From Lytechinus pictus (lineage: Eukaryota): a stretch of DNA of 64,000 nt. Position numbers and translations under genes: made by a program. Under the pieces are notes generated by a model that searched no databases, was not told the DNA's origin, and saw only the letters and a program-made list of their open reading frames with translations. The stretch covers positions 10,418,001 through 10,482,000 of the forward strand of contig NC_087251.1 of NCBI RefSeq assembly GCF_037042905.1, written 5' to 3'. Below are positions 19,927 to 62,310 of this stretch, in pieces (within the stretch, counting starts at the first letter, position 1; every line of letters begins with the position of its first letter).

Positions 19927-21656
19927 TATTACCTATTAAAAGTGAAGAGTTGAGAAGAAAGGAGCGAAAAACTGAAGGTGATGGAAGCAGATGGAAGTGG
20001 TAGAATTAGAATCAATTTTGCAAATGGAAATTGATAAGATGTTTATGTATGTGGCAAGAGAGAATCTGATCTTCACGTGACTAGTGAGGAATGAAGATGA
20101 AGATATAAAGCCACTTCTGAATGATTTTTACAAAAATTCACTGACTGAAGAGGAGACTGATGGGGTAGAATAACAGTGGTTGCATAGAATTGCAGCGGGA
20201 TCGATGCCACACCCCTATCAAAGGACGTTTCGTGCCATACACCAAAAGAGAAAACATATGCAATGCAAAAATTATGAAAGAAAAAAAATGTCTATCAGGG
20301 AGGACATTCACATGCTCATAAGAAGGTCAAGACTAGCACAAATACCAGTTCTTTTTGCAGCGAGAAAGGCAGGACGCTGGCTAATTTCCCCCCACATTTG
20401 TCCACAATAAATGGCTGCCAATATCAAAATATAGAAACTTCCTTGAGTCCCCCCCCAACAAAAAAAAAAATGAAGTCTTCACATTGCCCCTCAGTGTTAC
20501 CAGCACTTGTTGCCTCTGTACCAAGGGTTAGGGAGCAAGTGTATTAAAGAGCTCTGATTTTAATGAGCTTCTTAACATGAATTTGTTAGGAGACTTGTAA
20601 AGAAAGTAAATTTTGTCATGAAAGAAAGAGCTGATAAATGCCACAATGTGTGTTATACACAGATAAGCAAACTGAAGACAACGAGAGATGAGAAAAGAGA
20701 GGTTCTGGGCTTATTAAAACAAATGTACAGTATCTATTGCAATTCAGTTTATGATCAGCCAATCAAATAGAATGATTGTTATCCTAACAAGTTTTATTAA
20801 ATGGGCCCCAGGTGTTTGACTCTAATTTTGATTGTGGGCCAATGTATTTGACAATCGCATCTTATTAGCATGACATCTTTGTTAAATGGAGTAATCACAG
20901 GTTTGTCATATTCATGCCTGGGTTAATTAAACATTTTAGAAACAAGTTGTCAAATGGCCTTCAGCATACAAGTGTACAGTTCTATGGGACAGATTGAGAG
21001 CTTGCACTTCAAAAGGGCATAGCAGCAACCTCAAGCTTCAAGGAATTTTCACTGCATACTTCATCATAAGAGAAACTGTGAAGCCAAGCTAGCTAAACTG
21101 GGTGTCAGAATGTTGCCGGGGACAATTAAATTCATGGGAGAAGAGATGGATAGAGTTCCTTTTGCGACAGCCACCCAAAATCGATGGATATTAATATTAG
21201 ACTAGCCAGCATTCTTAATGAGGGCAAATTTTTTATGGGGGTTGAGCAACAAATTAGGCGTGGAATTTCTTTTGGTTATTATAAAAGAAAATGAAAAAAA
21301 AAAAAAAAATACTTTTTTTAACTGACTCTTGCTTTCTCTCCATCTCTCTTCCTCCCTCTCTTTCTGTCAATCCATGTGCACCGTCACTCTGTAACCTTGT
21401 ATTGCTTGCTATTTTGTATCTGTCAGGATTATAGAATGTGAATTGAACAATTAACATAATTACATTTATTGATCAAGAAACGAAAATGCTGACTTAAACC
21501 CGAGTCTTTGAGCATGTGAGTCCCTCGCCTTCACAATGAATCTGCGAAAAGAAGTTAGCAGCTCGGGTGGTCATAAGGTATAGACAAGTAGATACAACTG
21601 TAAGGCATTGGCCAATAGATGGGGCTCTCACTTTTGCTTATAATTCTAGCCTTGAA

Positions 21657-22119
21657 GGGCGCACACCACTAATAGGATCCGGCAATTTCGGGAATCCCCT
21701 TTATACCCGTACCTAAAATGACGTAATGGTTGGAAAAATATTCATATAAAATCAACGGTGCATATCTCAGAAATTTTTTTCAGGGCATAGAGAGGGATTA
21801 CTACTGGATCTGTTCACATCCATGGGAGAGCAGTAATTTGTCAATGCTAGATATTATGGGACCTTAATTAGTTGCCCAAGAAACCCTGTGAGCACTGCGA
21901 CTGCAACCAAGTTTGCATGTAGTCTTGGTTCGAGCCCCTGTAGCGCGAAAAAATGTTGAAAAACACCTTTTCATATCTTTAGCGTTTGAAGGATATTGGA
22001 TGAACTACCAAATGAGGAAGGTGTGGATGATGTCGTTATTAAGACTTATTTTGGGCGATTTTTTCAAATCTCATTTTTAACACATGAGTCTATGGGGAAA
22101 TAGTTAGTGGTGTGTGCCC
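21657..22119 (+). repeat. Left long terminal direct repeat of family 1 (463 bp) with its own 16-bp TIRs
   Basis: GGGCGCACACCACTAA ... TTAGTGGTGTGTGCCC; nearly identical to 26085-26550. Confidence 0.95.
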
Positions 22120-22640
22120 TGAATGGATGATGTGTGGTGAACAGGGCTAGCTGGATGTCTTGCTCCTGGAAGGGAAACTGATTAAAAAGAAGGGGTGCAA
22201 ACACTCTGAATAAATGCCTGCCCTGTTGTTCTATCATGAAAACCCAATTGGCAGCTAACTAGGCACCATTTTCATCAAAATACTCAAACAAATATAAAAA
22301 TGCCACTTTTGCCATTGACTTTGTATGTAATTTTGGCACTCTCCTACATTGGGGGTCTTAAATGCAAGACTAGCACGCGCGCAATAATCAGAAATACGTG
22401 TAGATCGTAGACCAAAACATAAACAGGCCAGCACCGACACCGGCACCTAGTTTATTGTTAGTAATTCTCTTTCAACATCTTCCTAAGATAGGATTTTGAG
22501 TCAAGTTAAAAGGAATAGCATGGCAAGGTAAAATTTAAAGTTTTTATATGGAATTTTATAGCAATGAATGTCTGGTTACTGAAATTCATTACAGAGGGCA
22601 AAACTTACTATTAAGTAATGTTATTTGGCTGTACACAATC

Positions 22641-23018
22641 ATGGCTGATCCACATCAGGAATGGTGCTCAAAATATTCAAAAATATTAGACAGTAAGACA
22701 GAAAAGAGGGGAAATGAGCCGTCGGCATGCTGGCCATTTAAAGGGCGAAAAAAAAATGGGTATGGCCTAGTGGATGTTAACATCCCAGGCAGCCGTAAGA
22801 CCACTAGGCATGCCCATCGGCTTGTGCTGATGACAAAGGTGGCGATGACTTGGGAGGTTTCGTCTGAGCTCTATGCCTCTCACCTTTGCGGTAATCGCAT
22901 CTGTGTGAGGCCAAGCCATTTAGTGTTTGAGAGCCATGAAGAGAACAAACAGCGTCAAATTTGCCATAATTTGAAAACTTGCCAATCCCACGAGCCCCCT
23001 TGCATCATATCAGCCTGA
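22641..23018 (+). CDS. His-Me finger (His-Cys box, I-PpoI-like) endonuclease, intact; the ORF is open from 22548
   Basis: CWPFKG..NGYG..AHRL..ASHLCGNRICVRPSHLVFESHEENKQRQIC..C.SHEPPC. Confidence 0.9.
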   Translation: MADPHQEWCSKYSKILDSKTEKRGNEPSACWPFKGRKKNGYGLVDVNIPGSRKTTRHAHRLVLMTKVAMTWEVSSELYASHLCGNRICVRPSHLVFESHEENKQRQICHNLKTCQSHEPPCIISA

Positions 23019-23138
23019 CTTAAGTATCACTGTGACTAACCGAGACGACAGTGAGTTTATTAACTAATTTTAGGGAAAGTAGGCATAGAGGTCTGGGCCT
23101 AGACTACTTAATTATTAAACAAATAAAGTGATCCAAAG

Positions 23139-25169
23139 TCAAGATCTAGTTTCCCCTTTATCGCAGATCTTTCTGTCATAGGAGTGATCACTTTGAATAG
23201 ATATGCGAGTGTTTTCTAATTGTCCCTTCACATAAGAGTGGAAATTGCTGTCATCTTTCCACCTTTTTACCTTTTGATACAGTTTGTATTTATACTCCCT
23301 ATGTGTAGCTTTGGACTTAATTGCTGTCATCTTTTTACTTCTCTTTCTCCAGTAGTCCCTTCTCTGCTGCAGATGCAAGAGCTTGTGTCGAAGTCTTGAT
23401 CCCCCTTTCACTGGAACCTGGGCAGCTAAGGCCTTGTCAAGGATCGATGCGGGGCCCCCGTTGGTAAGTTGTTGCAGAATGCTCTCTGTTTGCTTGATTT
23501 CTTACATAGGTAGTGGAATGTTTTGGGTAGGTTACTCTGAAAGCAGAATTCATTGACTCTGCCTTTTGTGTTGACAAATTAAACCTTGTTCTCCTGAGGG
23601 TTTGAGTGGACAGTCTTTGACGTATTGTTCCCAAAATTTGTTGCTGATCTCTCATATTAAGCGTTATCCGCTGTCTAAACTCCAAAGGTAAAAAGGGAAA
23701 TTTGAACCCTCCGTTACATGCTAGGCTCTGGTTCCAGCACAGTTCATGATTTCCAGTATAACACAAAATCATTGCCTCCCCACATCTTTGTAACTGTTCT
23801 TCGTATACTAAAATGTCCCCTGATTGATTATGTGCTGAATTTAATTCAGCTTGAACCCTGTAAGCAATGTCGCCTGCCATTGCTCTCTGCTGCTTGTCTC
23901 TCAGTCTTGAAGTTTTACCTGGGAAAGTATTTTTGCTCAGAGTAAGTCTTTCCAATTTTTTACACAGAGACCGCTTCAGGTGATTGACACAGAGGTATGA
24001 TGTTGGATCTACACCAGCTGCGCTCTTCATGACTTCTTGGACTCCCCTGTGAAAGTGTCCATCACTATCGCTAACACCTTTGACAAGTAGCTGCGTTTCA
24101 TCTCCAGTAAGTAATTTTTGTGCACATTTTTGTCCACCAAGCATTTCGTCCCCTATGTTATCACTCATCTTTATTGTGGCTGTACACTTAGGATGGTTAG
24201 GGCAGGCAGGTTCTTTTCCTTGACCAACTAATCTCTGGCCTACTCTACAAAGTTTGTTTGTTGAATTGTAAGTTACAATGTACTTCTCTGGGGTCACATT
24301 TTCTGTCACAACATCGCGAGCTTGAGTCGCTGGTGCAAATGGTGTTCTCCCCTTTGCATGGCTGAGAGGTATGTTATATTGTCTGTCAATTTCTATGTTA
24401 ATAGGTGTATTTCTGTCCATCCCTCTGTACTCCAAACTGTCTTTCACCTTCCTGCGCTTTTCTGCCATATCCAATTCATTGGCAGCGGCCAAGATATCAC
24501 CACATTTGTTAGCTTCTTTTGGAAACCGCTAAGTGATTCAGTTGGAATACTCATTGCTGTTAGAATCCTGTTTGCAGCAGCATTTGCAATACTGCTTTGG
24601 TATAGCCCCACCTGTAGAGCCATGTTTGGTACAGCAGTTTTTCTCCCTGATTCTGTTTTATCAATCTCTCTGAAAAACTTTAGAGCGGTTGATTCAAATT
24701 TACAAGTCCTGCACCTGAATACGACAGTAACTGCAATTCCTCTTATCTTTTCTTTTTCTTCAGGAATCATCCAGTCCATGTTTGAACACCCAGGGCTACA
24801 ATGTGAATGCTGTTGGCAAGCTTCATTGATGGACATGGTGAGCTTCTCTACATCAACAATCCGATGACCGACAGCTGAACCATCAGTGGATGTTAACATT
24901 TTTGCCAGTGGTACAGAGTCTTCTGATGTCTTTTGCCTGAGAATCATGGTTGTAGAAGAGCGACTGACAGGTTGATCATGCTTGTGAAGAAAGTTGCCAC
25001 GCTCATCACCGGACATTGTGCGGTCCAAGTCCTCTCTTGTTAGACGTACATATTTGGTCTTGAGAATACTGTTGGAATTACCAGCTTCCCACTTCAGCCC
25101 CTTATTCCATGCTCTATGGCCAGGTACAAGGAGGTTCTTTCGCTTGTCAGATAGTTTCTTGGGGCCCAT
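23139..25169 (-). pseudogene. Kolobok-type DDE transposase with two frameshifts (ORFs 24444-25169, 23437-24492, 23139-23411)
   Basis: H..C..C and CxxC N-terminal motifs; putative catalytic motifs NIEIDRQYN, VSDSDG and TQKAESMNS; CxxH; clearly homologous to 31886-33891. Confidence 0.85.
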
Positions 25170-26084
25170 TGTGACTGCTTTTGGTTTGGCAGGGAAAGTT
25201 TTTACTTGTATTTATACACTTTTCTACTGTGCATCCTCCCCCCCCCCCTCCTCCCCACAATAAGGAGAAGAAAAAAAAAATCAAAATTATGTCATGATTT
25301 CCTCCCTATTTTACAGGGAAATCATTTTCTTTTTAACCCAGAAGGGCAGCAGTGACGTATTTTGTAGCCAGAATTCCATGAGTACTTCCATGTCCTTCAC
25401 CTAGTTTACATTACACAATTGCTATGGTGACAGATTCATATTCCACACTGGCCAGCAATAAATGTCCCTTTAGTATACTACTGAATTAATACTCTGGATC
25501 ATGATAATAATCACAATGTATTCAGCTATCATTCTCTGTCATTTGGCTCTTCTCAATAACCCCCTCCCCTTTCCCCTTCCTCTCTCTCTCTCTCTCCCCC
25601 CCCCCACTCTCTCCCTTTCCTCCTTCCATTTCTCATCCCTTTCTGTCAACATGCCACTCATTTTCTCTGCCTTCTGTAAAACTATGAATGTTATTACACA
25701 CGAGGCACTTAGATTTGCTTTTTCTTTTGTTTTTATTGTTTTTTCTCTTGAATTGTGATATTAATTTCAAGTGATAATGACTTAGAAAAATGAATCAAGT
25801 ACTATTAAAACACATTTACAACATTTCAAAGGTGATGATTATCATTAAATTTCAATTCATGAACATGGATTGAGCTTAAACATTACAAAATTTTCTTATA
25901 GGTGCATTGTTTCAACATTGTGTATTCTGTCTGTATTATAACCCTGGAGAGACAATGTTTACTCCCTGATCATAAGAGAACAGGGTCTCAATTTTTTTTT
26001 TTTTTTTAAACATTATGCATATGATACCCTAAGGTTGTGCCAAAAAAAAAAATCCCAAGTTCAGTGAGAATCGCACCCTCTGAA

Positions 26085-26550
26085 GGGCGCACACCACTAA
26101 TAGGATCCGGCAATTTCGGGAATCCCCTTTAGACCCGTACCTAAAATGATGTAATGGTTGGAAAAATATTCATATAAAATCAACGGTGCATATCTCAGCA
26201 ATTTTTTTCATATGGGCATAGAGAGGGATTACTACTGGATCTGTTCACACCCATGGGAGAGCAGTAATTTGTCAATGCTAGATTTTATGGGACCTTAATT
26301 AGTTGCCCAAGAAACCCTGTGGGCACTGCGACTGCAACCAAGTTTGCATGTAGTCTTGGTTCGAGCCCCTGTAGCGCGAAAAAATGTTGAAAAACACCTT
26401 TTCATATCTTTAGCGTTTGAAGGATATTGGATGAACTACCAAATGATGAAGGTGTGGATGATGTCGTTATTAAGACTTATTTTGGGCGATTTTTTCAAAT
26501 CTCATTTTTAACACATGAGTCTATGGGGAAATAGTTAGTGGTGTGTGCCC
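26085..26550 (+). repeat. Right long terminal direct repeat of family 1 (466 bp)
   Basis: Direct copy of 21657-22119, flanked by TGAA on both sides. Confidence 0.95.
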
Positions 26551-26737
26551 TGAAGCAAGTCAACCTTCTGGACAACCTCGTACTGTAATATTGAGAGATG
26601 ACGGAATAAAGCCATGTGACATTGATTAGCCCACAACTAATGACTTTCGCCAGTGAATTGTGAATCTGCTAACTGAGCATGCGTTCATACTTAGTTCTGG
26701 CCTTACGACTGTCGCTTGCTTATATATATATATATAT

Positions 26738-26930
26738 ACCATATTCATGAATGCATCTATTATTTCAATATCTTGTCACTGTGAGCTTTAATGTATTCCT
26801 GAAAAAGACGAGGGATTTATTTCGAAAATTTGGACTTGGAAATAAGCTCTGTTGGAACTAGTACAATGCATTACCTCTTTGCCTCTTTTATCTCATCTAT
26901 GTCCAACACGTGAAATATAATATCGTTTTA
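26738..26930 (+). mobile_element. Short insertion in a (TA)n tract, possibly a Penelope-like terminal repeat fragment; copy A only
   Basis: Flanked by TA microsatellite and absent from copy B (~35403); contains CTGAAAAAG...TCGAAA. Confidence 0.4.
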
Positions 26931-27029
26931 TATATATATATATTTATATATATATATTTTTTTTTTTAGGGGGGGGTGGGAATTGAAATGTTATTGTGAC
27001 ATTTTGAACTCAGATGCACGTGTGCGCTC

Positions 27030-27615
27030 AAAGGAATGGATTTGCCCATCGACAGTGTGTGGAATAAAACTTTTAAAGGCTTTTGAAATGATTAATTACA
27101 GAAGACGAAGCGATAAGGTTTGGCCAAGATAGTGGACTCAAAGCGAAGACTGTCAACTGCCCATCTTGTGGAGAAACATTAACAAAACTGTACAAAAACA
27201 ATCAAAGTGGAAGATGTGTGAAACAACAGTTTCAGTTCAACAAGAGAAAGCGCCGTGAAAAAAAAGAAAAAGAACGTTGTACCAATTTGACGAGGAACAT
27301 GGTTTGGTAACACAAACATTAGTGTAAGGAAATCTTTTTCGTTGATGCACTGTTTTGTGAATAAAGTCAATTATACAGACACTGTGCATGAAACATCTGT
27401 ATCATCAGCAAGTTCCAGTACTAGCAACAATACTGAAACTGCAGATTTGTCAACTGAACGTGACTCTGTCAATCTTGACGAGAGACTCTACCTCAGAAGA
27501 GAAAGAGGTCATAACAAGTTGTGAAACTATTTCAGATTATTATAGCAACTGCTAAAAAGTATGCCTTTCTTCAATTGAAAATAGACATAAAGGCAGAAAG
27601 ATTGGAGGACCGGGT
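27030..27615 (+). pseudogene. Decayed Merlin (IS1595-like) transposase N-terminal fragment
   Basis: RGTWFGNTNISVRK...ETISDYYS.C*KVC...KIGGPG resembles the Merlin T..DW..FCREVC...KIGGPG motif; contains stops and frameshifts. Confidence 0.6.
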
Positions 27616-27900
27616 AGCTTTCGGGAGGGGAGGCTCAACTTCAAAAGGATATTACAGAACTCCAAATATATAAGAGTGCTTCAAGCAAGTAAGCCCGACA
27701 TATTGATTTTAGATTTGGGTACCAATGATTTATGTTCTCAGGACCCATTGACTGTACTGGTACATTTTCTACAGTTTAAAGATGGTTTGAGGGGAATGGG
27801 AGTTGCCCCAGCAGTAATTTTTGTCCTCCCAGTCCTCCCAAGGACTCGGGCGTACACAGGTTCAGCTCTTTCCCTCTCGGAATATAATCTCCGTGTGGAT
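27616..27900 (+). pseudogene. SGNH/GDSL hydrolase fragment, as carried by Ngaro/DIRS-like retroelements
   Basis: PDILILDLGTNDL (block III), VLPVLPR and YNLRV. Confidence 0.7.
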
Positions 27901-27977
27901 TAGTGATCATTGATTATATGATGTATAATTGTTTGATTTTCTTGATTGATTCTTGATAGATTTTGCAATGAATTAAT

Positions 27978-29740
27978 AAGCGAGTTCACAGATACACTCG
28001 GCGATTTCTGACGTCACGGCTCGAGAGGTCATTGGAGACCCAAAATGCGATCGTGCTTGCCGACGATAACGAGAAAGGTCATACTCGTCCGTGGGCCGCT
28101 CGGAACATGTACAAAACGAATGTAAATTGCGCGTGCCGTTATTAATAACAAACCAGTGTTTGTAGCTTTCTTTCTGAATTCCAGTGAATGAACTTTTCAT
28201 CAATATCATCGATTATTCATCTCCATTTCTCCGTAATTCCTGCAATGGCTGACGAAACAGAGGTATCGATAGATGAGATACGGCTTTGGACAGTGAGCGC
28301 CCTGAAAGACTTTCTTCAGAGCAGAAATCTCAAGGTTTCTGGTCAAAAAGACGAGTTGGTCGCTCTCGTGTATGCTGCCAAGATCATGCCAGGTATCGCA
28401 CCGCCGGCCACCAGCGCAGCCGAAGCTGAGGCAGAGAAGAAAGGGGAATATGCCGATCTTCTGAAAACTCCAACTGGGACAATACCGGATCCCCAAAACT
28501 TGTTAAATTGGGAATCAGAGGAGGAAGGTGTAAAGAAGTGGCCTCCAACAATGGCCTTTGACATCGGAGACTATCTGAACAATATTGACGATGTTGACTT
28601 GAGAACCAGACTGATGGCCAACTACAAGTACCAGAAAGCATATTCTTATTTCGCGTCGGGTTGGATAGGGGAGGTAGAGTACAACGAAATCAGTCATGAC
28701 AATAAATATCGTGCATTAAGAGCAGAGTGTACTCCATCCCAACGGATCCGAGATATTCCATGGAAAGTGTGGGTTTCGATTGAAAAGAAGAGTGGGAAAA
28801 TTCACTGTACTTACTGTACATGCTTAGCCGGGTGAGTGTTTGTGATTCTTTGTATATATCTAGATCTACAGTTTGGTAAATGTTGCAGAAACGTCAGGAT
28901 CAGGGAATCAGTGAATATAACAAATTGTAATATTATCATGTAACAATAAACAACTGTAGTCACTAGACTTAGTCTGTGAGTCTATGAAATATTTATGGTT
29001 TAATCAGTGTGTAGAAATATGTCTACGACGACTATCAGCATTTGAAGAAAAAAAATTGCCGCTGGAAAATCTTCAAACCCATGAATTCAACAATAAATAC
29101 ACTTGTTTCATAGTTCCTGGTTTTTCATTGTCAAAAATAGCTATGAAGAAATCCATGTACTTACATTTTGTATTTTTTTTTTCATTTCTTTTTTCTGCAG
29201 GTTCAGCAAAACTTGCAATCATATTGCCGCCCTACTGTTCAAAGTAGATTTTGCTTGGAGACATGGTTTGAACAATCCTGCCTGTACATCACTGCCATGT
29301 CAATGGTCTGCTTTTAGTGGACGACGTGCTTTTCAGCCCAAACGGATGAGCGAATTGATGTGGACTAAACCGCAGTTCTCCAAGCAAGGTATGGCCTCAT
29401 GAATGTATATTAATAACTCTTTTGAGTGTTCAGTGTGCGAATCTGCAAATATTCGTAAAGATAAATTGAACAATTCAATGTTCATAATTTGTTTTCTACT
29501 CCATCTGTGAACCTTAGAAAAAATGGCTGTTCTGTATGTAACATTAATAGATATAATTACTATTATTGTTTAATTTGGAACAATTATTTGACCAGCATGA
29601 GTTACAGGAGATGTCACAATTTATCCATGCAGTAGAACATATTTTTTCTTCAAAATAACTACATGTACATTTATTTTGAGATATGATAATTAATTTTAAA
29701 ATGTACACAAAACTGGAACAACATTGATCATATTTTTTTT
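27978..29740 (+). mobile_element. One end of a DNA transposon (ISL2EU-like accessory gene side), truncated at the duplication junction
   Basis: Absent from copy B at the homologous site (~36662). It has a CpG-rich start followed by the SAP-SWIM gene; no second end was found. Confidence 0.55.
28245..29388 (+). CDS. SAP-like plus SWIM zinc-finger protein, 5' exons only (28245-28831, 29201-29388); transposon accessory protein type
   Basis: WTVSALKDFLQSRNLKVSGQKDELVALV (SAP-like). Splicing joins CTYCTCLAG|FSKTCNHIAALLF (SWIM CxC..CxH), followed by ACTSLPCQW. Splice sites are canonical and in phase. Confidence 0.8.
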
Positions 29741-30291
29741 TTAAAGAGCTCTGATTTTAATGAGCTTCTTAACATGAATTTGTAAAGAAAGTAGATTTTG
29801 TCATGAAAGAGAAAGCTGATAAATGCCACAATGTGTGTTATACACAGATAAGCAAACTGAAGATGAGAGATGAAGAAAAGAGGTTCTGGGCTTATTAAAA
29901 CAAATGTACAGTATCTATTGCAATTCAGTTTATGATCAGCCAATCAAATAGAATGATTGTTATCCTAACAAGTTTTATTAAATGGGCCCCAGGTGTTTGA
30001 CTCTACTTTTGATTGTGGGCCAATGTATTTGACAATCGCATCTTATTAGCATGACATCTTTGTTAACTGGAGTAATCACAGGTTTGTCATATTCATGCCT
30101 GGGTTAATTAAACATTTTAGAAACAAGTTGTCAAATGGCCTTCAGCATACAAGTGTACAGTTCTATGAGACAGATTGAGAGCTTGCACTTCAAAAGGGCA
30201 TAGACAGGTAGATACAACTGTAAGGCATTGGCCAATAGATGGGGCTCTCACTTTTGCTTATAATTCTAGCCTTGTAGCAAGTCAACCTTCT

Positions 30292-30755
30292 GGTCCCACG
30301 AGCCTAATTACATTGGGAAGGCATAAGATATTCATTCGACCCAACCCAAATAATTTTTTTTTAATTTGATATAGCTGATTGACAAAAATGCATGAATATG
30401 ATTGAAAATTTAACACTGATTCTAGAAATGGTAACTACTGAACTTCCTTTGCCCAAATTGGGGAGATACATAAGTGACTTGGGACTATTTTTTGACTGGC
30501 GGAAGAAATAGGGCTATTTTACTGTTTCAGTTGATGAATTTGATCCATTCATAGTTATCTTCATAAATGGCGATTTATTTTTTAAATGAGCTGGCTACGG
30601 TACCCTTTCCTGGTCAGATATGGAATGTCAGATATATATCCTATCCAATGGTAGTAAACATTCGACCCTCTAATTTCACATTTATTTTTTTGAATTTTTG
30701 AAAAGTGCCATTATAACACACAAGTCTATGGGGAATGTTTTACGCGCCTGACACC
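30292..30755 (+). repeat. Left long terminal direct repeat of family 2 (464 bp) with imperfect TIRs
   Basis: GGTCCCACGAGCCTAA ... TTACGCGCCTGACACC; nearly identical to 34783-35248. Confidence 0.95.
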
Positions 30756-31110
30756 TCTACTGGAGAATAGGAGAAAATTTCAGTTTTGGGGATGTTGCTG
30801 AAATACCTGTCAAAACTCGTCAATAGCCAATATTGTGCACTAATTTCCATGTTTAAATCATCAGGTGACGCAAAAAAGTGGAATTTGAAGGCCGTACGAC
30901 CGACGGAATGGGGCTATATGCATAATGCAGGTAAATATACTGTAGGGCCTAGGGCTAGGCCGATGCTTGTGTGTGGACAGGCCTAACTTAAAGTGCCTGT
31001 GCGTGTTCTACATCCATATCTACCGACGATTGTGATGTTGTGCTTTTCTTACGTTCGGTCGATAGGAACGTTAACACCGTTTGATAACTTGTGCTTGTGA
31101 AAAAAGAGAC

Positions 31111-31545
31111 ATGGCTGAAGTTGGAAGAGGAATGGGGAGAAGTCAATTGAAAGATCTGACTGAAGAAGAGTGGTGCGAGCACTACAGAAAAAAATTGAGA
31201 GAAAGGCACAACGGGTCTGAGGGGGACCCAATATCTATATGCTGGATATTTAATGGGAGGAGCAAGAAAGGCTCGAATTACAAATGTATCGATGTGACAA
31301 TACCGGGGATAGGCCAGACCGTGCGTGCAGCACACAGGGTGGCCTATATGACCAGTATTGCAGGGTCTTGGTCCCTGCCTCCTGAGCTTGAAGTATCTCA
31401 TTTGTGCTGTCAGCCGTCTTGTGTTAGACCAGCACATTTGATCCTTGAAAGCCATGAAGAAAACCTATCTAGACGGAATTGTAATTCTTTGCAAAGATGT
31501 CTAGGGCATGGAACCAGACCATCATGTATCTTTGAATTAGACTAA
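31111..31545 (+). CDS. His-Me finger (His-Cys box, I-PpoI-like) endonuclease, intact
   Basis: CWIFNG..AAHRVAY..VSHLCCQPSCVRPAHLILESHEENLSRRNC..C.GH...C. Confidence 0.9.
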   Translation: MAEVGRGMGRSQLKDLTEEEWCEHYRKKLRERHNGSEGDPISICWIFNGRSKKGSNYKCIDVTIPGIGQTVRAAHRVAYMTSIAGSWSLPPELEVSHLCCQPSCVRPAHLILESHEENLSRRNCNSLQRCLGHGTRPSCIFELD

Positions 31546-31885
31546 GTTACATTATAGTTAGTTGCTCCTCCCTTAGTTGGACTAAGTTAGGTCCCCCGAT
31601 CCAATTAAGGTAGGCTAGAAGTAGGCTGTCTATTATTAAGTCAGGCCTAATTTTATTTTTATGTTAGAATTTGAATGAAGAATTCTAATCTAATTTAGGC
31701 CTATAGCAGTCAAGATCTAAACACAGTGCAGGTTAGTTACTGGGCCAACAGAACAAAAATGAGTTAGGCTCACATCTAAAGTAGATCAGGTGTTGGCCTA
31801 CACTAGCATGAGACTATTCCTTGAAAATAATCATTCATCCTAGAAACCTGATTAATGTCACTTATTTCCTCTATTCTGGGAGAGT

Positions 31886-33891
31886 CTAGTCACTATCACT
31901 CTCAGTGTTCAGCAGGGTTATATCATAGCTATGATCTACATATATATGACTATGGTCTTGGTCCAACTGTCCTTTCAAATAACATTCTTTGGAGTTAATG
32001 TCCATTCGCTTTCTCTCGTACAGTCTGAACTTATATATGCGATGAACAGCTCTTGCATGCTTGACATGAATCCTCTTTGATCTGACCTTCCAATAATCCC
32101 GTCTTTTCTGCATCTCTTTCAGTCTCTTCACGACTCTGAGACAGTGGAACCTTTGCAGCTGCAGTCTTGGAGAGGATGGATGCCCCTGCTCCATTGTTGG
32201 TTAAGCTGATAGCAGAGTGGTCTCTACCTTCATAGTTTTTGGTAAAGGTTTTAGTTTGCTTGGGATGGGTGGTATTAAATGCACTATTCATCGACTCACA
32301 TTTCTGGGTTGTGCTAAGTAGCCTTGATTTGGACACAGTAGATGGGTTCAGGTGCTGCATTATAACAGTCTGAATTCGTTGGCGATCAAGCTGTGTGAAA
32401 CATGTGGTTTGTCCAACTCTGAGACTGGAGTACACAAATTCAAAGTCACCTCTACATACATTACTATTTATATGACACAATTCATGGTTTCCAGTGAAGC
32501 AGAGAATGATAGCTGGCACACATTGGCTAAAATCCACTTTTGATATATCACCTTTTTTCAATTTTGCTGCTCTCATTTCAGCCTCAACGCGGTATGCAAC
32601 GTCATCAGAAAAGTTCCTCTGCAGTTTGTGCCGGCCTGTGACATACTTTGCTGGAAATGCCTGCTTGCTAAGTTCAAGTTTACCAAGCCTTCGTGCCAAG
32701 CCTCGGTTCAGGTGAGTGTTGCACAGAAGCGGCTCTGGGTCTATATTTGCTCTTTTGTACATTACTTTCCTTATACCTCTTGCAAAGTGACCATCGCTAT
32801 CTGTGGTCACTGCTCCCACAGTTATGCTCTCTGATCCATCTAGTAGCATCTTGGCACACCGCTCTCCTCCATCCTCCTCATCTCCAATGTTTGCAGAGAG
32901 TGGTACAGTTGCAGTGCACTTTCCATGATTGGGGCATAAAGGTTTCTTTCCCTCCCTGACAAGCCTCTGCCCATGTCGACACAGTTTATTTGTTCCATTA
33001 TATGCTAGAATGTACTTTTCATGGGTTACATTTTCAGCTACTGTGTCCCTGGACTGGCTTGCTGGGGCAAAAGGGGTCTTTCGTCGAGCATGGCTTAATG
33101 GAGTATTGTATTGGCGATCAATTTCAATGTTTATGGGAGTATCCCTTGCCATTCCCCTCCATTCAAGTATATCCTTCACCCTCTTCTTCATTCGACCCAT
33201 ATCACTTTTGTTTTCTGCTATCATGATTTGTCCACACTTGTTAGCATTTCTTTGAAGGGAGCTCATTGCAGGGACAGGGGTATTCATAGAGGTAAGCATC
33301 CTTGTTACAGCTGTACCAGCAATACTGGTTTGGTAAAGACCAACTTGGAGCGCCATGTTTGGTACAGCTGCCTTCCTTCCTCTCCTGTTGCTTTCAATCT
33401 CCTTGTATAGTTTTTGGTGGGTACTCTTAAAATTGCAGTTGGTGCACTCAAACCGCTCACTTACTGCTAGTCCTCTTGACATTTTCACCCTTATCACTTA
33501 TCAACAGATTTGGAGCCAAACAAGAAGGACTACCGACTTGATGCTGACTGATCACGTTGTTGAAGCACTCTGCTAATTTCTCCATGTCCACAAAGCGATT
33601 GCCAGTGGCGTTTCCAGATAAAGATATTGGCTCTGTGAATTCTTGCAAAGGTAAACTTTCTCCCATTTTAGGGCGAAGAAGCATTACTGTTTTAACTTGT
33701 GTTTCGATAGTGCTTGACTGTAGATCACCATGGACAGAAGTTGTTCTGTTCATATCGTTGCTTGTCAGTCGCACGTAGCTGGTAGGCTTCAGCAATTCCC
33801 TTTCACATGATTGACCTTTATTCCAGGGTTGGTGTTTAACTTTAAATTGTGTCTTTTTTACTTTATTGTATGAATCTTTCCTCCTAGCCAT
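31886..33891 (-). pseudogene. Kolobok-type DDE transposase with two frameshifts (ORFs 33457-33891, 32031-33497, 31886-32194)
   Basis: CTNC; NIEIDRQYN, VTTDSDG and TQKCESMNS putative DDE motifs; CNTH. Confidence 0.85.
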
Positions 33892-34782
33892 GATGCAATG
33901 TCATCTCACCAACTGAATTTTCTTCACACTACATGATGACAAGAACAAACTGAGCAGTATGATGTTTAGATGAGATCTAAAAATCACTCCCTCTCCCCCC
34001 CATCATCTCTCTCAATCTTGTAGAAGAGTAGTTTATTTACACTCTTGTATGCACCAGTGAGTTAATCCTTCCTTTGTTCTGTTGAACCGCAGACATTTAG
34101 AATTAATAAGGTTATTATTTTATTTTACATTTGAAATCTTTTACTGGGAAGATGTGCACAGAGAATCAATGTTCAGATTTCTTCAATCACCCTCAATAGA
34201 CTTGCACAACTACCATTCAGTGTATCTCTTACTTCCTCTTTATTTCTTTCTCTCTCTCTCTCTCCTTTTTCTTGCCCCCCCCCTTCTCTTTATGTCTCCC
34301 CCTTTCCCTCTATGTCTTTCTTTCTATCTATCTATCTCTCTCTCTTTTCTCTTCATCCCATACTCCTTTCTCATTCTTTATACCATGATAATAAACTGAA
34401 GAAAAGACAAATATTTGTAATATATGTAAAAAGAAACATTATTTTATTGTTTTCTCATTTCCTTCTTATGCAAATCATGTACCAATGAGGGAGGACATTG
34501 TCTTGGGGCCTCTAGCACACAGATATGATCAGAAATTGTACATATTTACACCTTTATGTTACATAAGTATATCACTTATTACAATACATTTTTTATGAGT
34601 GTGCAGGTAGAATATTGTGTAGAGTGCCTATAAACATGTACATATATGAGTCAATTAAATGAGTCATTACTTATTACATTTGTATTTTGAGTGCAATTTA
34701 TTGTAATCATGTGACTGTACAGATGTGAAAGAACACCAAGGGGGCTGAAATAATTTTTAAAATTCTTACGTCATACATTATA

Positions 34783-35248
34783 GGTCCCACGAGCCTAATT
34801 ACATTGGGAAGGCATAAGATATTCATTCGACCCAACCCAAATAATTTTTTTTTTAATTTGATATAGCTGATTGACAAAAATGCATGAATATGATTGAAAA
34901 TTTAACACTGATTCTAGAAATGGTAACTACTGAACTTCCTTTGCCCAAATTGGGGAGATACATAAGTGACTTGGGACTATTTTTTGACTGGCGGGAGAAA
35001 TAGGGCTATTTTACTGTTTCAGTTGATGAATTTGATCCATTCATAGTTATCTTCATAAATGGCGATTTATTTTTTAAATGAGCTGGCTACGGTACCCTTT
35101 CCTGGTCAGATATGGAATGTCAGATATATATCCTATCCAATGGTAGTAAACATTCGACCCTCTAATTTCACATTTATTTTTTATGAATTTTTGAAAAGTG
35201 CCATTATAACACACAAGTCTATGGGGAATGTTTTACGCGCGTGACACC
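34783..35248 (+). repeat. Right long terminal direct repeat of family 2 (466 bp)
   Basis: Direct copy of 30292-30755. Confidence 0.95.
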
Positions 35249-35499
35249 TTCTGGACAACCTCGTACTGTAATATTGAGAGATGACGGAATAAAGCCATGT
35301 GACATTGATTAGCCCACAACTAATTACTGTCGCCAGTGAATTGTGAATCTGATTGTGAGCATGCGTTCATACTTAGTTCTGGCCTTACGACTGTCGCTTG
35401 CGTATATATATATTTATATTTATTTTGGGAGGGAGGCTTGGGAATTGAAATGTTATCGTGACGTTTCGTTCGAACTCAGATGCACGTGTGCGCTCAGAG

Positions 35500-36520
35500 G
35501 AAATGGATTCGCCCATTGACATCTGCCTCATCTGGGGGAAAAACTAAAGTGTGTGGAATAAAACTTTTATAGGCTTTTGAAATGATTAATTACAGAAGAC
35601 GAAGCGATAAGGTTTGGCCAAGATAGTGAACTCATAGCGAAGACTGTCAACTGCCCATGTTGAGGAGAAACATTAACAAAACTACAAAAACAATCAAAGT
35701 GGAAGACGTGTGAAACAACAGTTTCAGTTCAATAAGACAAAGCGCCGTGAAAAAAAAAAAAGAATGTTGTACCAATTTGACGAGGAACATGGTTTGGTAA
35801 CACAAACATTAGTTTAAGGAAATCTTTTTCGTTGATGCACTGTTTTGTGAATAAAGTCAATTATACCGACACTGTGCATGAGACATCTGTATCATCAGCA
35901 AGTTCCAGTACTAGCAACAATACTGAAACTGCAGATTTGTCAACTGAACGTGACTCAATCTTGACGAGAGACTCTACCTCAGAAGAGAAAGAGGTCATAA
36001 CAAGTTGTGAAACTATTTCAGATTATTATAGCTACTGCTAAAAAGTATGCCTTTCTTCAATTGAAAATAGACATAAAGGCAGAAAGATTGGAGGACCGGG
36101 TAGCTTTGGGGAAGGGAGGCTCAACTTAAAAAGGATATTACAGAACTCCAAATATATAAGAGTGCTTCAAGCAAGTAAGCCCGACATATTGATTTTAGAT
36201 TTGGGTACCAATGATTTATGTTCTAAGGACCCATTGACTGTACTGGTACATTTTCTACAGTTTATAGATGGTTTGAGGGGAATGGGAGTTGCCCCAGCAG
36301 TATTTTTGTCCTTCCAATCCTCCCAAGGACTCGGGCGTACACATGTTCAGCTCTTTCTCTCTCGGAATCTAATCTCCGTGTGGAAAGGTTCAACAGACTT
36401 TTGTCTGTAGTCTGCTCTAGGTTTGGGAGCACCGTTCCCTGTCGGATGCAACCCATCATATTCTTGATGGAGTGCATCTGACAGAGAGAGGGAAGGAGTT
36501 CTACATGCGTAGGGTGATAA
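35500..36520 (+). pseudogene. Copy B of the Merlin transposase relic plus SGNH hydrolase relic
   Basis: TISDYYSYC*KVC..KIGGPG, then LDLGTNDL and DGVHLTERG (SGNH block V, ~36466). Confidence 0.7.
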
Positions 36521-39500
36521 GTTTCTGTCAGACCCATTTTGGGGTTTAATTGATTTTTTATTATTGTGGGGTGAATGAAGTAAATTAGTTATCATTTATT
36601 ATATGATGTATAATTGTTTTATTTTCTTGATTGATTCTTGATTGATTTTGCAATGATTTAATTGACCCAGTTTGATTTGCCGACATGGATCATTTAACAT
36701 ATTCTTTGTATCCCTGTTATATAAGTTATAATGTAAATATCAATTATATTTGTAGGAAAATTCTGTATCAGACGGCAGGATGGTGTCAAACGGAACTGGA
36801 GGAGGCATGGGATATCTACCTCTGATGGTAGTCTTGATATCATCCCAAAGTCTTGGTAAATGGGATTTAATCAGGAACGGGTGTTACTTGTAATAATATT
36901 TTAAATGAGTTATATTTGTCCATGTGCAAGGATTTGTAAAATCAATTATTTTGGACATTTGAAACAAAATTTAAAAAAATACAGAAAAGGACAAAAACAC
37001 AATAAGTAAAAATAATAATTTTCAGGCACAGAAAGAAAGTGGAAATATTTGGTTAGATTAATTGAATTGTGGAAAGGAAGCACATTAACCCTATTCTTAG
37101 AGATTGGGGGTTAAGGAATTAAATAAGGTTTTGATATTATTATATTGGTACCTTTTACATTGCATGTACTTTGTAAATATCATTTTACGCTTGTAATTAC
37201 AAGTACAGGGCTACTGAAGGGGAGAGCACTTCATAGCTAGATGTCCGTTGGCAAGGCTTTCCGTAAATTTGGTGTGACATTTTCCTAACATGACGCTATC
37301 CACCTTGATCCTAAGTATCTTTGCTGACTTCGAAATTGGTTGGTCATTGGTATGATTTTCTTTGTAAAAAGATTTTGTGTGAGACCTTAAGTATAGGCCA
37401 AGAAACTTTTTTCTACATGTATCATTGCTATTATTGCTAATGTATATATGATGGGTAAATGTACATGTAGTATTTGATATAACTAGTTGTGCATAAAAAG
37501 TATAATGAACGTTTAATTGATGCTTAGACGTCGTCCTTTAAACTAAACATTTGAATTCATTTTTATACAGGGGTATGGAGTGTTAATCTTTGAAGGGGTG
37601 ATATCATCGATGAAGCAGCAGGATGCCTGGGTCATCCACTTCCAAATGCCTATGCGTTGACATTTCCCTCATAAGAAGCCCTCCATATCCTAATTGGAGA
37701 AGATAAAGGTATATACAGTTTATTTGCCAAAATAGAGTGATAGATTTGGCATAAATATAGAATGATATTGAAATGTTTCTATTGCTTATGACAAAAATTG
37801 TAAGTGTCATGGATGGACTTCCGTCAGTAACAACAAAACCTTTTCCCTTAATTTTTTACGATCTTATGGAACAGATCGATTCAGTAGGGGAAAGTTATAG
37901 CGGGGTGGAAATAGAGATTTGTTTGTTTTGGTAAAAAGTTTGTTTGCCTTCTTCCATTGTTTACATTCCTTCATGTGTTGATTTCAGTTGCTAGTTTTTC
38001 TGGGCCAGGCTAGTGCTTTAGATGTGGAAGTGAAAGAATGCAAACTGGCTGGGTTGCTAGGTGTTGCTAAAGGCTGTCTGGGATTTTGAATGAGTATTTT
38101 TCGGGACTTGATGGATTTGGAAGAGCTGAATTGAATACCCAATTAGAATTTATGGGCAGTCCAGCTGAACTTAAATATCTTTCTGTTCTGCTTCTGATTT
38201 CCAGTTCTACGGCTCGCTTACATTCTTCAGCGGTTATAAAGGGAGAGAGAGAGAGAGAGAGAAAGAGAATGAACAGGTGGGAGAGATAACTGAGTTGTAA
38301 GATGAAGAGTCGTAGAACGAGAGAATTGAGTGAGAGAGTGAATGAGAGAGCTGTAATGGGAGTGGTTAAAGGGTGAGAGTCGCAGAGAGAGGAAAAGTTG
38401 ATCTAGAGAGCAATTGGGGGAGTGTAAAAGGAGTTGCCTAATACTAAGTGGGAAGAATAATGGAAAGCCAAAGAACTTGAATTTGGAATCAGAGTACGCA
38501 CATTAATTAGTTTCGCTTTATACACTAATATTGCGGGCGGATTAATTTGGCGCATTACGCCAAAAGTGATAGGCCCGATTTGGTGGAAGGGTTTTCTTGC
38601 CATGTGGTGTTTGAGCCAAGAATGATAAAAGGGAGAGGGTTAAGTCGGCAGTTGGATTCTTTTCATTCGTAATTGGTTTGCTGCCGTTAGCAATGTCAGC
38701 TTAATTTTACTTAATTGTCGTCCAGCCCAGAGATGCGACGTTATTATATTGTACCAACACATTGATTTGACGTTGATTTAAAATAAACTTAATGCACAAC
38801 TTTACTTCATCCAGGCATGAGAATTGTCCCGATTTTTATCGGAATTCCGATTTTTTTTCATCAAAATCTGTGGTCACCGAGTTCGATGTGAATTTGATAT
38901 ATTTGGGGGGTAGCGAGCCACCGCGAGGCTGAATCCTTACCGGGCCGCGCCGGCGGGGAACGCACTGATCGATCCGTTGCTAGCTACGCTAGCTCAAGCA
39001 GCAACACGCACGGAGTGCGAGACTGCACCGCACACTACTTCGGTCGCACCACTGACATGAACGATGCGAGCGAAAATCGTGCGGTGGCTTTAATTCAGTC
39101 TCTAGTATCAAAATGGCGGCATCTACACCGAAGTTCGTTGATCGCGATGGGGGAGAAGCGGACCCGAAGGAGATAGATAAATCCGTCAAAAATAGATGGA
39201 ACTGGTCGTGGTGTGACCATATAATTTTGGAAGGCACTTCTGGGGGGGCGTTTCATCAACATTTCCCGTCTGACATCTTGTCAGATCCGACAACTACGTC
39301 ATCGTCTGACATCTTGTCAGAACTGACCAAAAAACCGTTTCATGAAGCTCGCAGCGGCCGTCTGACATCTTGTCAGACGGTTTTTAATTATTACATCGTA
39401 GTGAACGAGCCTACTGACCAATTAGGCTCCGCCCCAAACTAGCGGCAAAGAAAAACATTAAAAATTCTCGCGATCGTACCCTTCTGCTGCTGCTGCTGTC

Positions 39501-46289: not shown

Positions 46290-49200
46290 TAGACAAGACC
46301 AATATGGGGAGAACTTGAGTTCAAGAAGCATTTTGGGGTAAAAGTTGGGAACCGGTCTATTTCACCTAATTTGAATGTGCTGAATCTGATAAGACCGGTT
46401 CCCAAGCCAATTTTTCATGTTTTGACCACCTAATTTGCATAAACAAAATGGCTGCCAAATTAAAAATTTATAATCTTATTTCTACAATATTCTTTTATAA
46501 TATTCGCTTTCACCGATATGGATACTGCAAAATCCTGCATACCTAACATGTACCATTCGGGAAAATTTGTTATTTCTGTTTGCGGCTAATTAATTATGCA
46601 AATTTATGCATATTTTGCAATATTATGCTATAATTTGATAATTACACCTAAAATGTTTATCATATTGGGTACAAATAGAATTTGTATCATTATGATAATT
46701 GTTTGGCCCTTAGATATAAAACTCAAGTCAATTTTTATATGTATTTTATTGTTATTTGATATTTCTTTTGTGTTCTTGTATTTTCTGCCATTTGCTTTGT
46801 ATATGTTTGATATGAGATCTTTAAAAAACTAATATCAATGGCAGACAAATATTAAGCTTCAATGATTGAATCATTTGATAAACTTCTTTTGCCACAACTG
46901 TTAATTGTACTCAGGAACAAATACACACACATGCTCCCACACCCACACCTGTATATAGAAAGTAATATACTTGCAAGGTATAGTAGACATGCCCAATATA
47001 AAAACATTGATGCTGATCCTATAATCATGACAATTACCAAATTCAATGAACCAGTAAGAAAAGAAGAGTTTAGAAGTTGGAAAACCTGTAATCATGCTGA
47101 ACTTAAATTTCTTAAAATAGATATATTAAAATGTTTTATAATGAATTAAACGTATGATTTACGCAGTGTAGTTTATCAATCGGACATAAGTATCAGTACA
47201 TTGTTATTATCCTTGTAGCAAAATTATATTTTTGATTCAGCTTCATCAGAACTGCAATCATGGCAGTTAACCAAAGAACAATTTGTAATAAATGCAAAGG
47301 GTCTGTATTACTGGATCACTTACTAGGTTTTTTTTGGTCATTACCGATTTATTTATTTATTTGGCAACGATACATTTTCCCCAAGTCAACCATGAAAGTG
47401 ATAACTGAAAACCACAGCTTTTATCCAATCCTTGCCTTGGAAGATTCTTTGACGAACGATACTGAATACAGAAGAGGAAATTATAAAAACATGGGGCTAA
47501 ACACAGATTAGCTCCATGGTTAAAACATGGGAAAAACAAGAAGGTTTCCAGCCCAGTCACTGCCCAATGCAGATCAAATTTTCACAGTGTGTCCTATGGT
47601 TAAAAAGTGCTAGAGATGCCTGTTGAAGGTAAACCAGCATGGAGACAGTTGCAGAAGTCCAGTCTAGAGGTTATCCAGTCATGGATGATATTTTCTGCAC
47701 CAACTCATGTAAGACAATGTCTGATCTCAGCAATTCTGTGGAGCAGGTAATATGCAGATTGGCAGACATGTGATGTGTGTTTCTTCATGCTCATTGTTCT
47801 ATCAAAGACTACGCCAAGAGATCTAGCCTTGCATACTGGAGAGATATAGCTTCCTCACCTATTAAGACTGGAGTTGTAGTCATAATAATTACGCATATAT
47901 GGAGATGACAGAACAAGATACTTCGCTTTTTATTGTTAAGCTCCAGGAAGTTGACCTTCATCCTACATCGAATCCTCAATGGCAGCACCAACAACAGCAG
48001 CTGCACGAACATCTGGATCTTTAACTTTTGGATCAAAAGTGAGGTATACAGCTGGATGTCATCAGCATGGAAGTGTATACCAAGACCATGTTGCCACATT
48101 ACAGAGCCAAGAGGAGTGATGTACAGTTTGAAGAACAAGGGACAAGGACAGACTCCCAAGGAACTCCATATCAAAGGGTAGTCACAGGAGACTGCATGCC
48201 AGTGATGAATACAGCTTCATACAGCTCTGTTAAACTTGCCATTGGAGTGCAGAATCATCAATTCCAAAACAGACTGTCAGTCTCCCAAGAAGAATGACAT
48301 ATTCACTGGTATAAAAACCGGTTGACAAGTCATACATAACTTAGGCAACTGCTTTCCTCATAGAAAGAGAAATCCTGGCTCTACAATCGAAGAAATTCTC
48401 GACCTAGACTTTGATGGTGATATCTCAGACTCGCATGCAGCATATTAGAGCTGGGTAAGCAATTGGATGCTGTTGGGTTTAATACCGATCAAAATAAGTG
48501 GATTAAAATTCACCTAAATGAACGCCAAACATGCCAGGAACCCACCATCCTCTGAAAGATATCTTCGTTATCAATTTGAAATAGTCTATCTTATGAAGAT
48601 ATGAAGATGTGTGAATATTAGAAGTTCGATAAATGGCCTAGAAGACATAACACAATTCACTGCGGTATTAAAAAGGTGCACTCCGAGCATTTTAACACCT
48701 GAAACAAGATCTGGTTAGACAGCAGATTCTCTCTCAAGACATGCAAGACAAAAGTTTAGGTTTTCTCTATGGATCTGTGACATGAGAATCGGACATATCT
48801 CAAGAACACAAACACAATGACTTCGATACGGACTGCCTCCGCAGAATACTTGTACTAAATTGGTTTGATTTCAACAATTAGAGATGACTTTTATAATATG
48901 AGGCTGCCCTATCAATCAAGCCATCCAATGGAACACCAAATCGATGATAACTGACATTGATCATTCAACACCCCGAAGGTAAAGGTGTATATCAAGCTGG
49001 GGGAAGCTGGATGCCTCTAAGTTGGATGAAGCGGCAATCCTTGATAGGACAGGTGCAGTACTGCATTGGAAAAGATATATTATGGAGATGCACATGTAAT
49101 CCGTTAATGAAGTCCAACGATAAAAAATTGTTATTTAAAGGATATGCAGTGACTTATTCCTTGTGGAACTTTAGAACATCAGTCTGGCTTTTAAAACACG

Positions 49201-55333: not shown

Positions 55334-55859
55334 CCTGTTACTGTTGTCATGGGCAGTGGACTTGTCGGATGAAATTGGCATTTGTCGGTAGGTAAAGAGT
55401 GACCGACCAAATTCAAGATACTTGTCGGATCAAATTAGAGCACTTGTCGGATTTTTCATCCGACAAAGTTTCATGAAATGGAAAGTTGTCGGACGAATAA
55501 AAGTTGTCGGATAAAATGGGACTTGTCGGATAAAACGTCCGACAAGTCCTTTCATGAAACGCCCCCCAGATCAACATTTGGCCGGGGATTGTTTTCGTAA
55601 GCTGTACAATCCCGGTGAAGCTTGGTGCAATGACAGCATAAGGTATGGCAACGGAGGTCTTAAAACACTGCGTCAGCATGCCACTGGAGACAAACACAAG
55701 AAGAGATTCCGTGAAAGAAGGACCAACTACTGCCTGAACTTTGGTAATTTGAATACTTTGTTTGTGAATATTATATAAATTACTGTAGACTCTACATGAC
55801 ATTCATTTTAAAGTTAAGCTTACTAACTTTCTGAACTTGATGACCAACTTAGACCCACA

Positions 55860-62300: not shown

Positions 62301-62310
62301 TAATTATTGA

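What the first reader, a model, noticed from the sequence alone, without database searches (positions are those of the whole stretch)
30292..35248. Second, strongly diverged family with the same composite architecture
Seen: same gene order, orientation and ~4.9-kb size. The terminal repeats share almost no sequence with family 1, and the proteins are homologous but diverged (shared TPINIEIDRQYN, TPFAPA, ESHEEN). The two repeats within each element differ at only a few positions, so both families moved or were homogenised recently. The TSD is TTCT rather than the canonical Kolobok TTAA.
Basis: partly seen in the sequence, partly recalled or inferred. Interest (0 to 1): 0.7.

Follow-up and report, generated by a model that had tools for sequence, protein, structure and literature searches.

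The report
Known sea-urchin KolobokP transposon copy
This is an ordinary, damaged copy of a DNA transposon family already catalogued from the painted sea urchin, and its one oddity is that it and a related transposon next door sit 15 bases apart in two copies of the same duplicated sequence.

Summary
The anatomy is real. 30292-35248 has 464/466-bp direct end repeats (462 of 466 columns identical), a TTCT target duplication, a His-Me nuclease (+) and a DDE transposase (-) broken in two places. It is not a duplicate of the neighbour at 21657-26550: transposases are 52% identical, nucleases 46%, and the best DNA match is 65.7% over 498 nt.

It is a copy of the published family KolobokP-1_LyPi (Kojima & Bao 2022, Lytechinus pictus). 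By eye it differs from the consensus at 14 of 466 end-repeat bases, 11 of 350 internal bases and 3 of 85 nuclease residues. The neighbour is the family I could not find in that paper. Non-TTAA duplications are normal for KolobokP: 14 of 185 published sites I tallied were TTAA and 5 were TTCT.

Left over: the two elements lie 15 bp apart in two copies of one duplicated host segment (about 2% by chance). This element's target reads CC-TTCT-GG, like its own abutted ends; published sites lean the same way (37 vs 10). The scan already filed the neighbour as KolobokP; three look-ups showed nothing on other DNA. Known; low interest.

The parts
30288..30291 (.). left target-site duplication TTCT
   Evidence: unoccupied homologous site with one TTCT at 26566-26569
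30292..30755 (-). left long terminal direct repeat (464 bp), GG...CC ends, imperfect terminal inverted repeat (11 of 16)
30713..30735 (.). subterminal block shared with the neighbouring family's end repeat (also at about 35206-35228); probably a transposase-binding site (inferred)
   Evidence: local alignment; motif found in only the 4 L. pictus entries of the paper's sequence file
31111..31545 (+). His-Me finger (His-Cys box-like) nuclease, 144 aa from the first ATG, open frame
   Evidence: PF05551 E 4.9e-11; 82 of 85 aa equal to the paper's KolobokP_1_LyPi row, by eye
31886..33891 (-). Kolobok DDD/E transposase in three frame pieces (breaks near 33476 and 32140); IEID, TDSD, CNTH and QKCES motifs present
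34228..34370 (.). CT-rich low-complexity stretch inside the internal region, also present in the published consensus
34783..35248 (-). right long terminal direct repeat (466 bp), terminal inverted repeat 12 of 16; 14 of 466 differences from the published KolobokP-1_LyPi repeat
   Evidence: comparison by eye
35249..35252 (.). right target-site duplication TTCT
29741..30291 (.). host segment left of the element, duplicate of 20544-21022 and 21577-21656; holds the unoccupied site of the neighbouring element (TGTA at 30273-30276), 15 bp from this element's site
35253..36662 (.). host segment right of the element, duplicate of 26570-27977; includes a broken GDSL/SGNH-like frame
21657..26550 (-). 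neighbouring KolobokP element of another family (end repeats 21657-22119 and 26085-26550, TGAA duplication); context, not part of this element

Best explanation
A full-length but damaged copy of KolobokP-1_LyPi, a composite-like Kolobok DNA transposon of the sea urchin Lytechinus pictus (or a very close relative). A DDD/E transposase from an intact sister copy recognised the outer GG...CC ends and inserted the unit with a 4-bp staggered cut, duplicating TTCT. The duplication is shown; the enzyme step is inferred from the family. The two end repeats were copied from one template shortly before or during that move (inferred), in line with the paper's untested circle or unequal-crossover models. 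The nuclease is proposed to cut in or beside the end repeats to drive tandem amplification, not to choose the site; that is the paper's model and is untested. This element and the neighbour inserted independently after the host segment was duplicated, into a transposon-rich region. Their 15-bp offset is best read as a local hot spot helped by a weak CC|N4|GG flank preference, plus chance.
For: - Family identity: 452 of 466 end-repeat bases, 339 of 350 internal bases and 82 of 85 nuclease residues equal the published consensus (by eye).
- Transposase 99% identical over 307 aa to an L. pictus protein.
- Domains above Pfam cut-offs; catalytic motifs present.
- Same opposite-strand nuclease in 16 of 21 related loci.
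- Dispersed family: 10 contigs of run X1 leave the end repeat at 30755 into different sequence (agreement 0.45), and end-repeat depth far exceeds internal depth, in line with 44 repeat copies against 10 internal copies in Table S1.
- Host copies differ by 35 of 1363 aligned bases (2.6%), more than either end-repeat pair (2 and 7 substitutions).
Against: - The 15-bp coincidence has about a 1.7% chance if two insertions fall evenly in ~1.8 kb of shared sequence. Having two full-length elements 3.7 kb apart is itself unlikely for families this rare.
- The comparison with the published consensus was by eye and covers about 0.8 kb of DNA and 85 residues, not the whole element.
- The frame breaks could be assembly errors: no listed X1 contig covers them.
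- No genome was held, so the family's target sites could not be tabulated.
Confidence: 0.9

Rival explanations
1. Same identity, but the site was chosen by end-mimicry. KolobokP moves through a circle with abutted ends, and the transposase is drawn to genomic sequence that looks like an element end, as in IS911-type targeted insertion. This would explain the CC-TTCT-GG target, the near-shared site of two families, and how direct end repeats and multimers are rebuilt.
For: - 30285-30293 and 35246-35254 both read ACCTTCTGG, so the element's terminal ACC and GG are also present in the target; CC-N4-GG occurs 79 times in 64,000 bases.
- By-eye tally of published sites: end-like CC-left or GG-right against wrong-side GG-left or CC-right was 25 vs 7 in 120 sites of one clam family, and 12 vs 3 in 65 held-out sites of two snail families (two-sided P 0.002 and 0.035). 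One clam site has the same CC-TTCT-GG context.
- The paper infers a circle intermediate from excision footprints.
Against: - The lean is weak: only 3 of 185 sites have both dinucleotides, and most have neither.
- A plain palindromic preference of the transposase gives the same counts.
- The neighbour's site lacks the full pattern.
- No L. pictus sites could be counted, and the pattern was noticed after the fact.
- IS911 targeting is recalled; some searches showed only a reference title.
Confidence: 0.15
2. Both families home to this host sequence: the nuclease cuts a site in the duplicated segment and elements are captured at the break.
For: Two families 15 bp apart in homologous copies; the nuclease frame is intact in both; parts of the host segment are multi-copy in run X1 (depth 146 at 29950).
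Against: The family's ends run into many different flanks. The paper finds no strong target specificity and concludes that the nuclease does not set the site. A 2026 review argues that protein-guided homing needs a site-restricted transposon. The nucleases are only 46% identical. No host-like flank was found in 21 of 21 related loci, though those come from other sources and mostly lack flanks.
Confidence: 0.04
3. The two host copies are alleles placed in tandem by the assembler, so the two elements are allelic insertions at nearly one locus.
For: 2.6% divergence between the copies is in the range I recall for sea-urchin alleles; no listed contig spans the whole stretch.
Against: X1 contigs match with 0 other letters across both joints of the spacer: 27945-28477 crosses 27977 and 29173-30321 crosses 29741. 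28478-28774 is not among the pieces shown, and X1 may not be independent of the assembly. The 15-bp offset would still need explaining.
Confidence: 0.08
4. The two elements are one insertion duplicated together with the host segment.
For: Both sit in homologous host sequence.
Against: The host copies differ by 2.6% while the elements are at best 65.7% alike. The sites and duplications differ, and each host copy holds the other element's unoccupied site.
Confidence: 0.01

Closest known systems
KolobokP-1_LyPi (Kojima & Bao 2022, PMC9587614; Lytechinus pictus; 4984 bp, end repeats 466/467 bp, 4-bp duplication)
   Same: End repeat 97% identical, start of internal region 97% identical, nuclease core 82 of 85 aa (by eye); same size class, gene layout and duplication length.
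   Different: This copy is 4957 bp, has two frame breaks in the transposase, and its two end repeats share 13 differences from the consensus, so it may belong to a subfamily.
Neighbouring KolobokP family at 21657-26550 (not found in the paper's sequence file)
   Same: Architecture, orientation, ~465-bp end repeats, subterminal motif, 4-bp duplication, two frame breaks, same host segment.
   Different: Transposase 52% (181 of 351), nuclease 46% (56 of 123), different terminal inverted repeat (15 of 16 matched), TGAA duplication, different branch of the tree.
Canonical Kolobok (Kol0) elements
   Same: RR...YY ends, 4-bp duplication, C/DxxH-type DDD/E transposase.
   Different: Kol0 is TTAA-specific and encodes KolX; the paper describes long direct end repeats and the His-Me nuclease as particular to KolobokP.
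Bacterial composite transposons and copy-out/paste-in IS (IS911, IS256 family, IS26)
   Same: Works like them in layout: two end modules with their own inverted repeats around a core; a circle intermediate is suggested.
   Different: The transposase lies in the core, not in the end modules; no circle has been shown for KolobokP; not a member of these families.

Membership tests
KolobokP | Two long terminal direct repeats of ~450 or ~660 bp | tested here: met
   464 and 466 bp, 462 of 466 columns identical
KolobokP | Each repeat has RR...YY ends and its own short inverted repeat | tested here: met
   GG...CC; 11 and 12 of 16 positions match; imperfect repeats are common in Table S1
KolobokP | DDD/E transposase with C/DxxH signature and two zinc-finger motifs | tested here: met
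   PF20700 E 2.2e-44; IEID, TDSD, CNTH, QKCES and two Cys/His clusters; which residues are catalytic is my reading of the motifs
KolobokP | His-Me finger nuclease downstream on the opposite strand | tested here: met
   PF05551 above cut-off; 82 of 85 aa equal to the paper's row. A sequence-only PDB search did not reach I-PpoI.
KolobokP | 3-5-bp target duplication without strict sequence | tested here: met
   TTCT on both sides and once in the unoccupied homologous site
KolobokP | Solo repeats and multimers in the genome | tested here: inconclusive
   End-repeat depth far above internal depth and 10 contigs with different flanks in X1; no genome to count them
KolobokP | Nuclease activity and its role in multimer formation | not testable with these tools
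   Still unconfirmed in the 2026 review
KolobokP-1_LyPi | More than 90% identity to the family consensus (threshold of the paper's Table S1 footnote) | tested here: met
   97% over 466 + 350 bases, by eye; the rest of the internal region was not compared
Canonical Kolobok (Kol0) | TTAA-specific duplication | tested here: not met
   TTCT
LTR retrotransposon | gag / reverse transcriptase / integrase between TG...CA repeats | tested here: not met
   GG...CC ends; the 4 internal frames scanned gave only Mutator-like transposase and His-Me/HNH families above cut-off

The most novel reading that the evidence does not exclude
KolobokP transposases choose targets that mimic their own end-to-end junction (CC|N4|GG), as bacterial copy-out/paste-in IS do when they insert next to an IS end. 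This end-directed integration of a one-repeat circle would be what rebuilds the direct end repeats and multimers, and what drew two 52%-identical families to within 15 bp of each other in two copies of one sequence. It would be an animal DNA transposon using IS911/IS26-like targeted integration.
Probability: 0.15. Interest if true: 0.55.

Novelty: already known. Interest (0 to 1): 0.14.

Why it matters
As posed it matters little: the element, its host and variable target duplications are in a 2022 paper. Two modest things are useful. (1) The window gives a natural pair of filled and empty sites for two KolobokP families 15 bp apart, a ready substrate for testing what the transposase and the still untested nuclease recognise. 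(2) The published site lists lean towards C before and G after the duplication, which the paper's text does not state. If this proves to be mimicry of the element's ends rather than a plain palindromic preference, it would support a circle-and-targeted-insertion route in animals and explain how the composite build is kept.

Tried and rejected
- One duplicated insertion: rejected.
- TTCT as an anomaly: rejected. By-eye tally gave TTAA in 14 of 120 sites of KolobokP-1_MeMe and 0 of 65 of KolobokP-6/-7_GiAe; TTCT in 2 of 120 and 3 of 65. Rows dropped before counting: 42 of 162 and 22 of 87, for longer or mismatched duplications or internal-region flanks.
- Genome-wide target table: not possible, no genome held.
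- Viral contigs: 0 of 28 pattern hits confirmed. GTDB gave 2 loci and metagenomes 19. None matched the host segment, and no pair of flanks from a full-length insertion was recovered.
- The TGTA/TGAA difference at the neighbour's site as an excision scar: not supported. Trimming a TGAA duplication returns TGAA, and a substitution in 4 given bases has about a 10% chance at 2.6% divergence.
- The host segment as a TTAA-type transposon: it starts and ends at TTAA, but no inverted partner of its start was found.
- Similarity of the target region to sequences inside either element: only short, chance-level matches.
- PDB sequence search with the nuclease: one irrelevant hit, E 0.49.
- Expression: no RNA holder listed. 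In two raw RNA runs about 6% was read; 434 and 408 reads were laid, mostly 90-95% alike and on the end repeat, so nothing is shown for this copy.
- Self-closing metagenome contigs as evidence of circles: rejected, since assembly of a two-repeat element gives the same loop.
- The first motif search of the supplements found nothing because the paper stores the opposite strand and its consensus differs in one peptide; later searches with positive controls worked.
Full report
Observation. The element has exact ends at 30292 and 35248. The direct end repeats are 30292-30755 and 34783-35248; they differ by 2 substitutions and 2 single-base gaps. Each begins GG and ends CC, with an imperfect inverted repeat (11 and 12 of 16). 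TTCT flanks both outer ends. Inside are a His-Me nuclease on + (PF05551, 43.4 bits) and a Mutator-like/Kolobok transposase on - (PF20700, 152.3 bits). The transposase lies in three frame pieces with breaks near 33476 and 32140. A contig of run X5 lacks one base at 33476, so that break is not shared by all copies. Whether the breaks are decay or assembly error is open.

Relation to the neighbour (21657-26550). Same layout and size (4957 vs 4894 bp). Transposases are 181 of 351 identical, nucleases 56 of 123, and the best DNA match is 65.7% over 498 nt. In a 32-row tree the two cores fall on separate 100/100 branches inside one 100/100 group of 18 rows; the root is at the midpoint, for drawing only. 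The end repeats are distant homologues with a shared subterminal block, not unrelated.

Identity. The best named protein hit is an L. pictus protein, 99% identical over 307 aa, among 30 hits. Kojima & Bao 2022 describe KolobokP: 450- or 660-bp direct end repeats with their own inverted repeats, a DDD/E transposase and an opposite-strand His-Me nuclease, in 228 families from 7 phyla. Table S1 lists KolobokP-1_LyPi at 4984 bp with 466/467-bp repeats. By eye, the reverse strand of the right repeat differs from the published repeat at 14 of 466 positions without gaps. The first 350 internal bases differ at 11, and the nuclease core at 3 of 85 residues. The neighbour's end motif and nuclease peptide gave no hit in the paper's sequence file, while this element's controls did; line breaks could hide a match.

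What I saw of each paper. PMC9587614: main text parts 1-5 of 6, Table S1 whole, file 2 parts 1, 2 and 5 of 7, file 3 part 13 of 106 and search passages. File 4 was searched only. PMC13565253: two passages. PMC2909936 and PMC7780238: passages, with IS911 targeted insertion only as a reference title; its mechanism is recalled. The other papers were seen as listings only. The unread supplement parts could change the site tallies.

Target duplication. The paper states that KolobokP shows no strong target preference. I tallied by eye the rows with an exact 4-bp duplication and genomic flanks: 120 of 162 rows for KolobokP-1_MeMe and 65 of 87 for KolobokP-6/-7_GiAe. TTAA made up 14 and 0, TTCT 2 and 3. 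TTCT is unremarkable.

How it works. Shown: the anatomy, the 4-bp duplication, and a dispersed family. In run X1, 10 contigs leave the repeat end at 30755 into different sequence, and repeat depth is 1295-2139 against about 8-12 inside (depth is not a copy number). The opposite-strand nuclease recurs in 16 of 21 related loci. Inferred: an intact sister transposase inserted the unit, and this copy can now move only in trans if the breaks are real. The two repeats share 13 differences from the consensus but differ from each other at 2 substitutions, so they derive from one template more recently than the consensus. That fits the paper's circle or unequal-crossover models, or simply a subfamily. 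The nuclease's role remains unconfirmed.

Both elements sit in copies of one duplicated host segment: 20544-21656 plus 26555-27977, and 29741-30291 plus 35253-36662. The copies differ at 35 of 1363 aligned bases. Each copy holds the other element's empty site, and the two sites are 15 bp apart. For even placement in ~1.8 kb this has a chance of about 1.7%. X1 contigs with no differences cross both joints of the spacer between the copies, which favours a true tandem arrangement. The contig reaching the element's left end has only 30 bases inside it, one short of the tool's bridging rule, and X1 may not be independent of the assembly.

Target context. The target of this element reads CC-TTCT-GG, the same pattern as two abutted element ends; CC-N4-GG occurs 79 times in the window. 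In the published lists, CC left or GG right of the duplication outnumbered the wrong-side arrangement 25 to 7 in the first family. In the two families that I set aside as a held-out test it was 12 to 3 (two-sided P 0.002, 0.035; pooled 1e-4). The effect is weak, counted by eye, and equally explained by an ordinary palindromic preference. I found no statement of it in the paper's text; my searches were 'KolobokP' (2 papers) and Kolobok + target site + transposon from 2022 (19 listings). Against true homing: many different flanks, the paper's conclusion and the review's argument.

Earlier notes. The scan's follow-up on the neighbour also calls it KolobokP; I had reached that name. A note spanning 21599-35390 exists but is withheld. 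Sequence look-ups with the end repeat and the host flank found nothing.

Verdict. Observation confirmed, interpretation partly supported, novelty 'already known'. Interest 0.14, carried almost wholly by the shared site and the flank bias.

Noticed in passing
window 21653-21656 / 30273-30276 and 26566-26569 / 30288-30291: Two KolobokP families inserted 15 bp apart in two copies of one duplicated host segment; each copy preserves the other's empty site.
   Followed up: partly
window 21657-26550: The neighbouring family was not found in the 2022 sequence file. Its outer duplication and both inner junctions all read TGAA, whereas a copy in run X1 has a different start of the internal region.
   Followed up: partly
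PMC9587614 Figures S3-S4: Published KolobokP sites lean to CC before or GG after the duplication (37 vs 10 wrong-side among 185 sites, by eye).
   Followed up: partly
window 27978-29740: Truncated spliced gene or transposon piece with a SAP domain (PF02037) and a SWIM-like CxC...CxH motif (recalled pattern) sits between the two host copies; X1 contigs match the covered parts without differences.
   Followed up: no
window 27556-27903 and 36042-36550: Broken GDSL/SGNH-hydrolase-like frames in both host copies (Pfam below cut-off), a type I recall from tyrosine-recombinase retroelements.
   Followed up: no
window 21023-21576: 554 bp present in host copy 1 but not in copy 2, bounded by a short near-repeat.
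   Followed up: no
L001 and L002: KolobokP transposase plus nuclease on 4.6-4.7-kb contigs of Sedimenticola and Ca. Thiodiazotropha genome bins; most likely animal host DNA contaminating symbiont bins.
   Followed up: partly
L008, L013, L017, L020: Metagenome contigs of 3.7-4.2 kb that close on themselves, three of them (L008, L017, L020) with a clear single end repeat; circles, tandem arrays or assembly loops cannot be told apart.
   Followed up: partly
L004:3069-3548: A 480-bp end repeat whose terminal inverted repeat closely resembles that of the neighbouring family in the window.
   Followed up: no
window 50494-55429, 57443-60128, 61894-64000: Relics that look like Harbinger, hAT and DIRS-type elements (labels recalled, not tested); the window is rich in transposon remains.
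   Followed up: no
window 46320-50318: A long interrupted inverted repeat (arms of 226, 123 and 70 nt at 77-88%).
   Followed up: no
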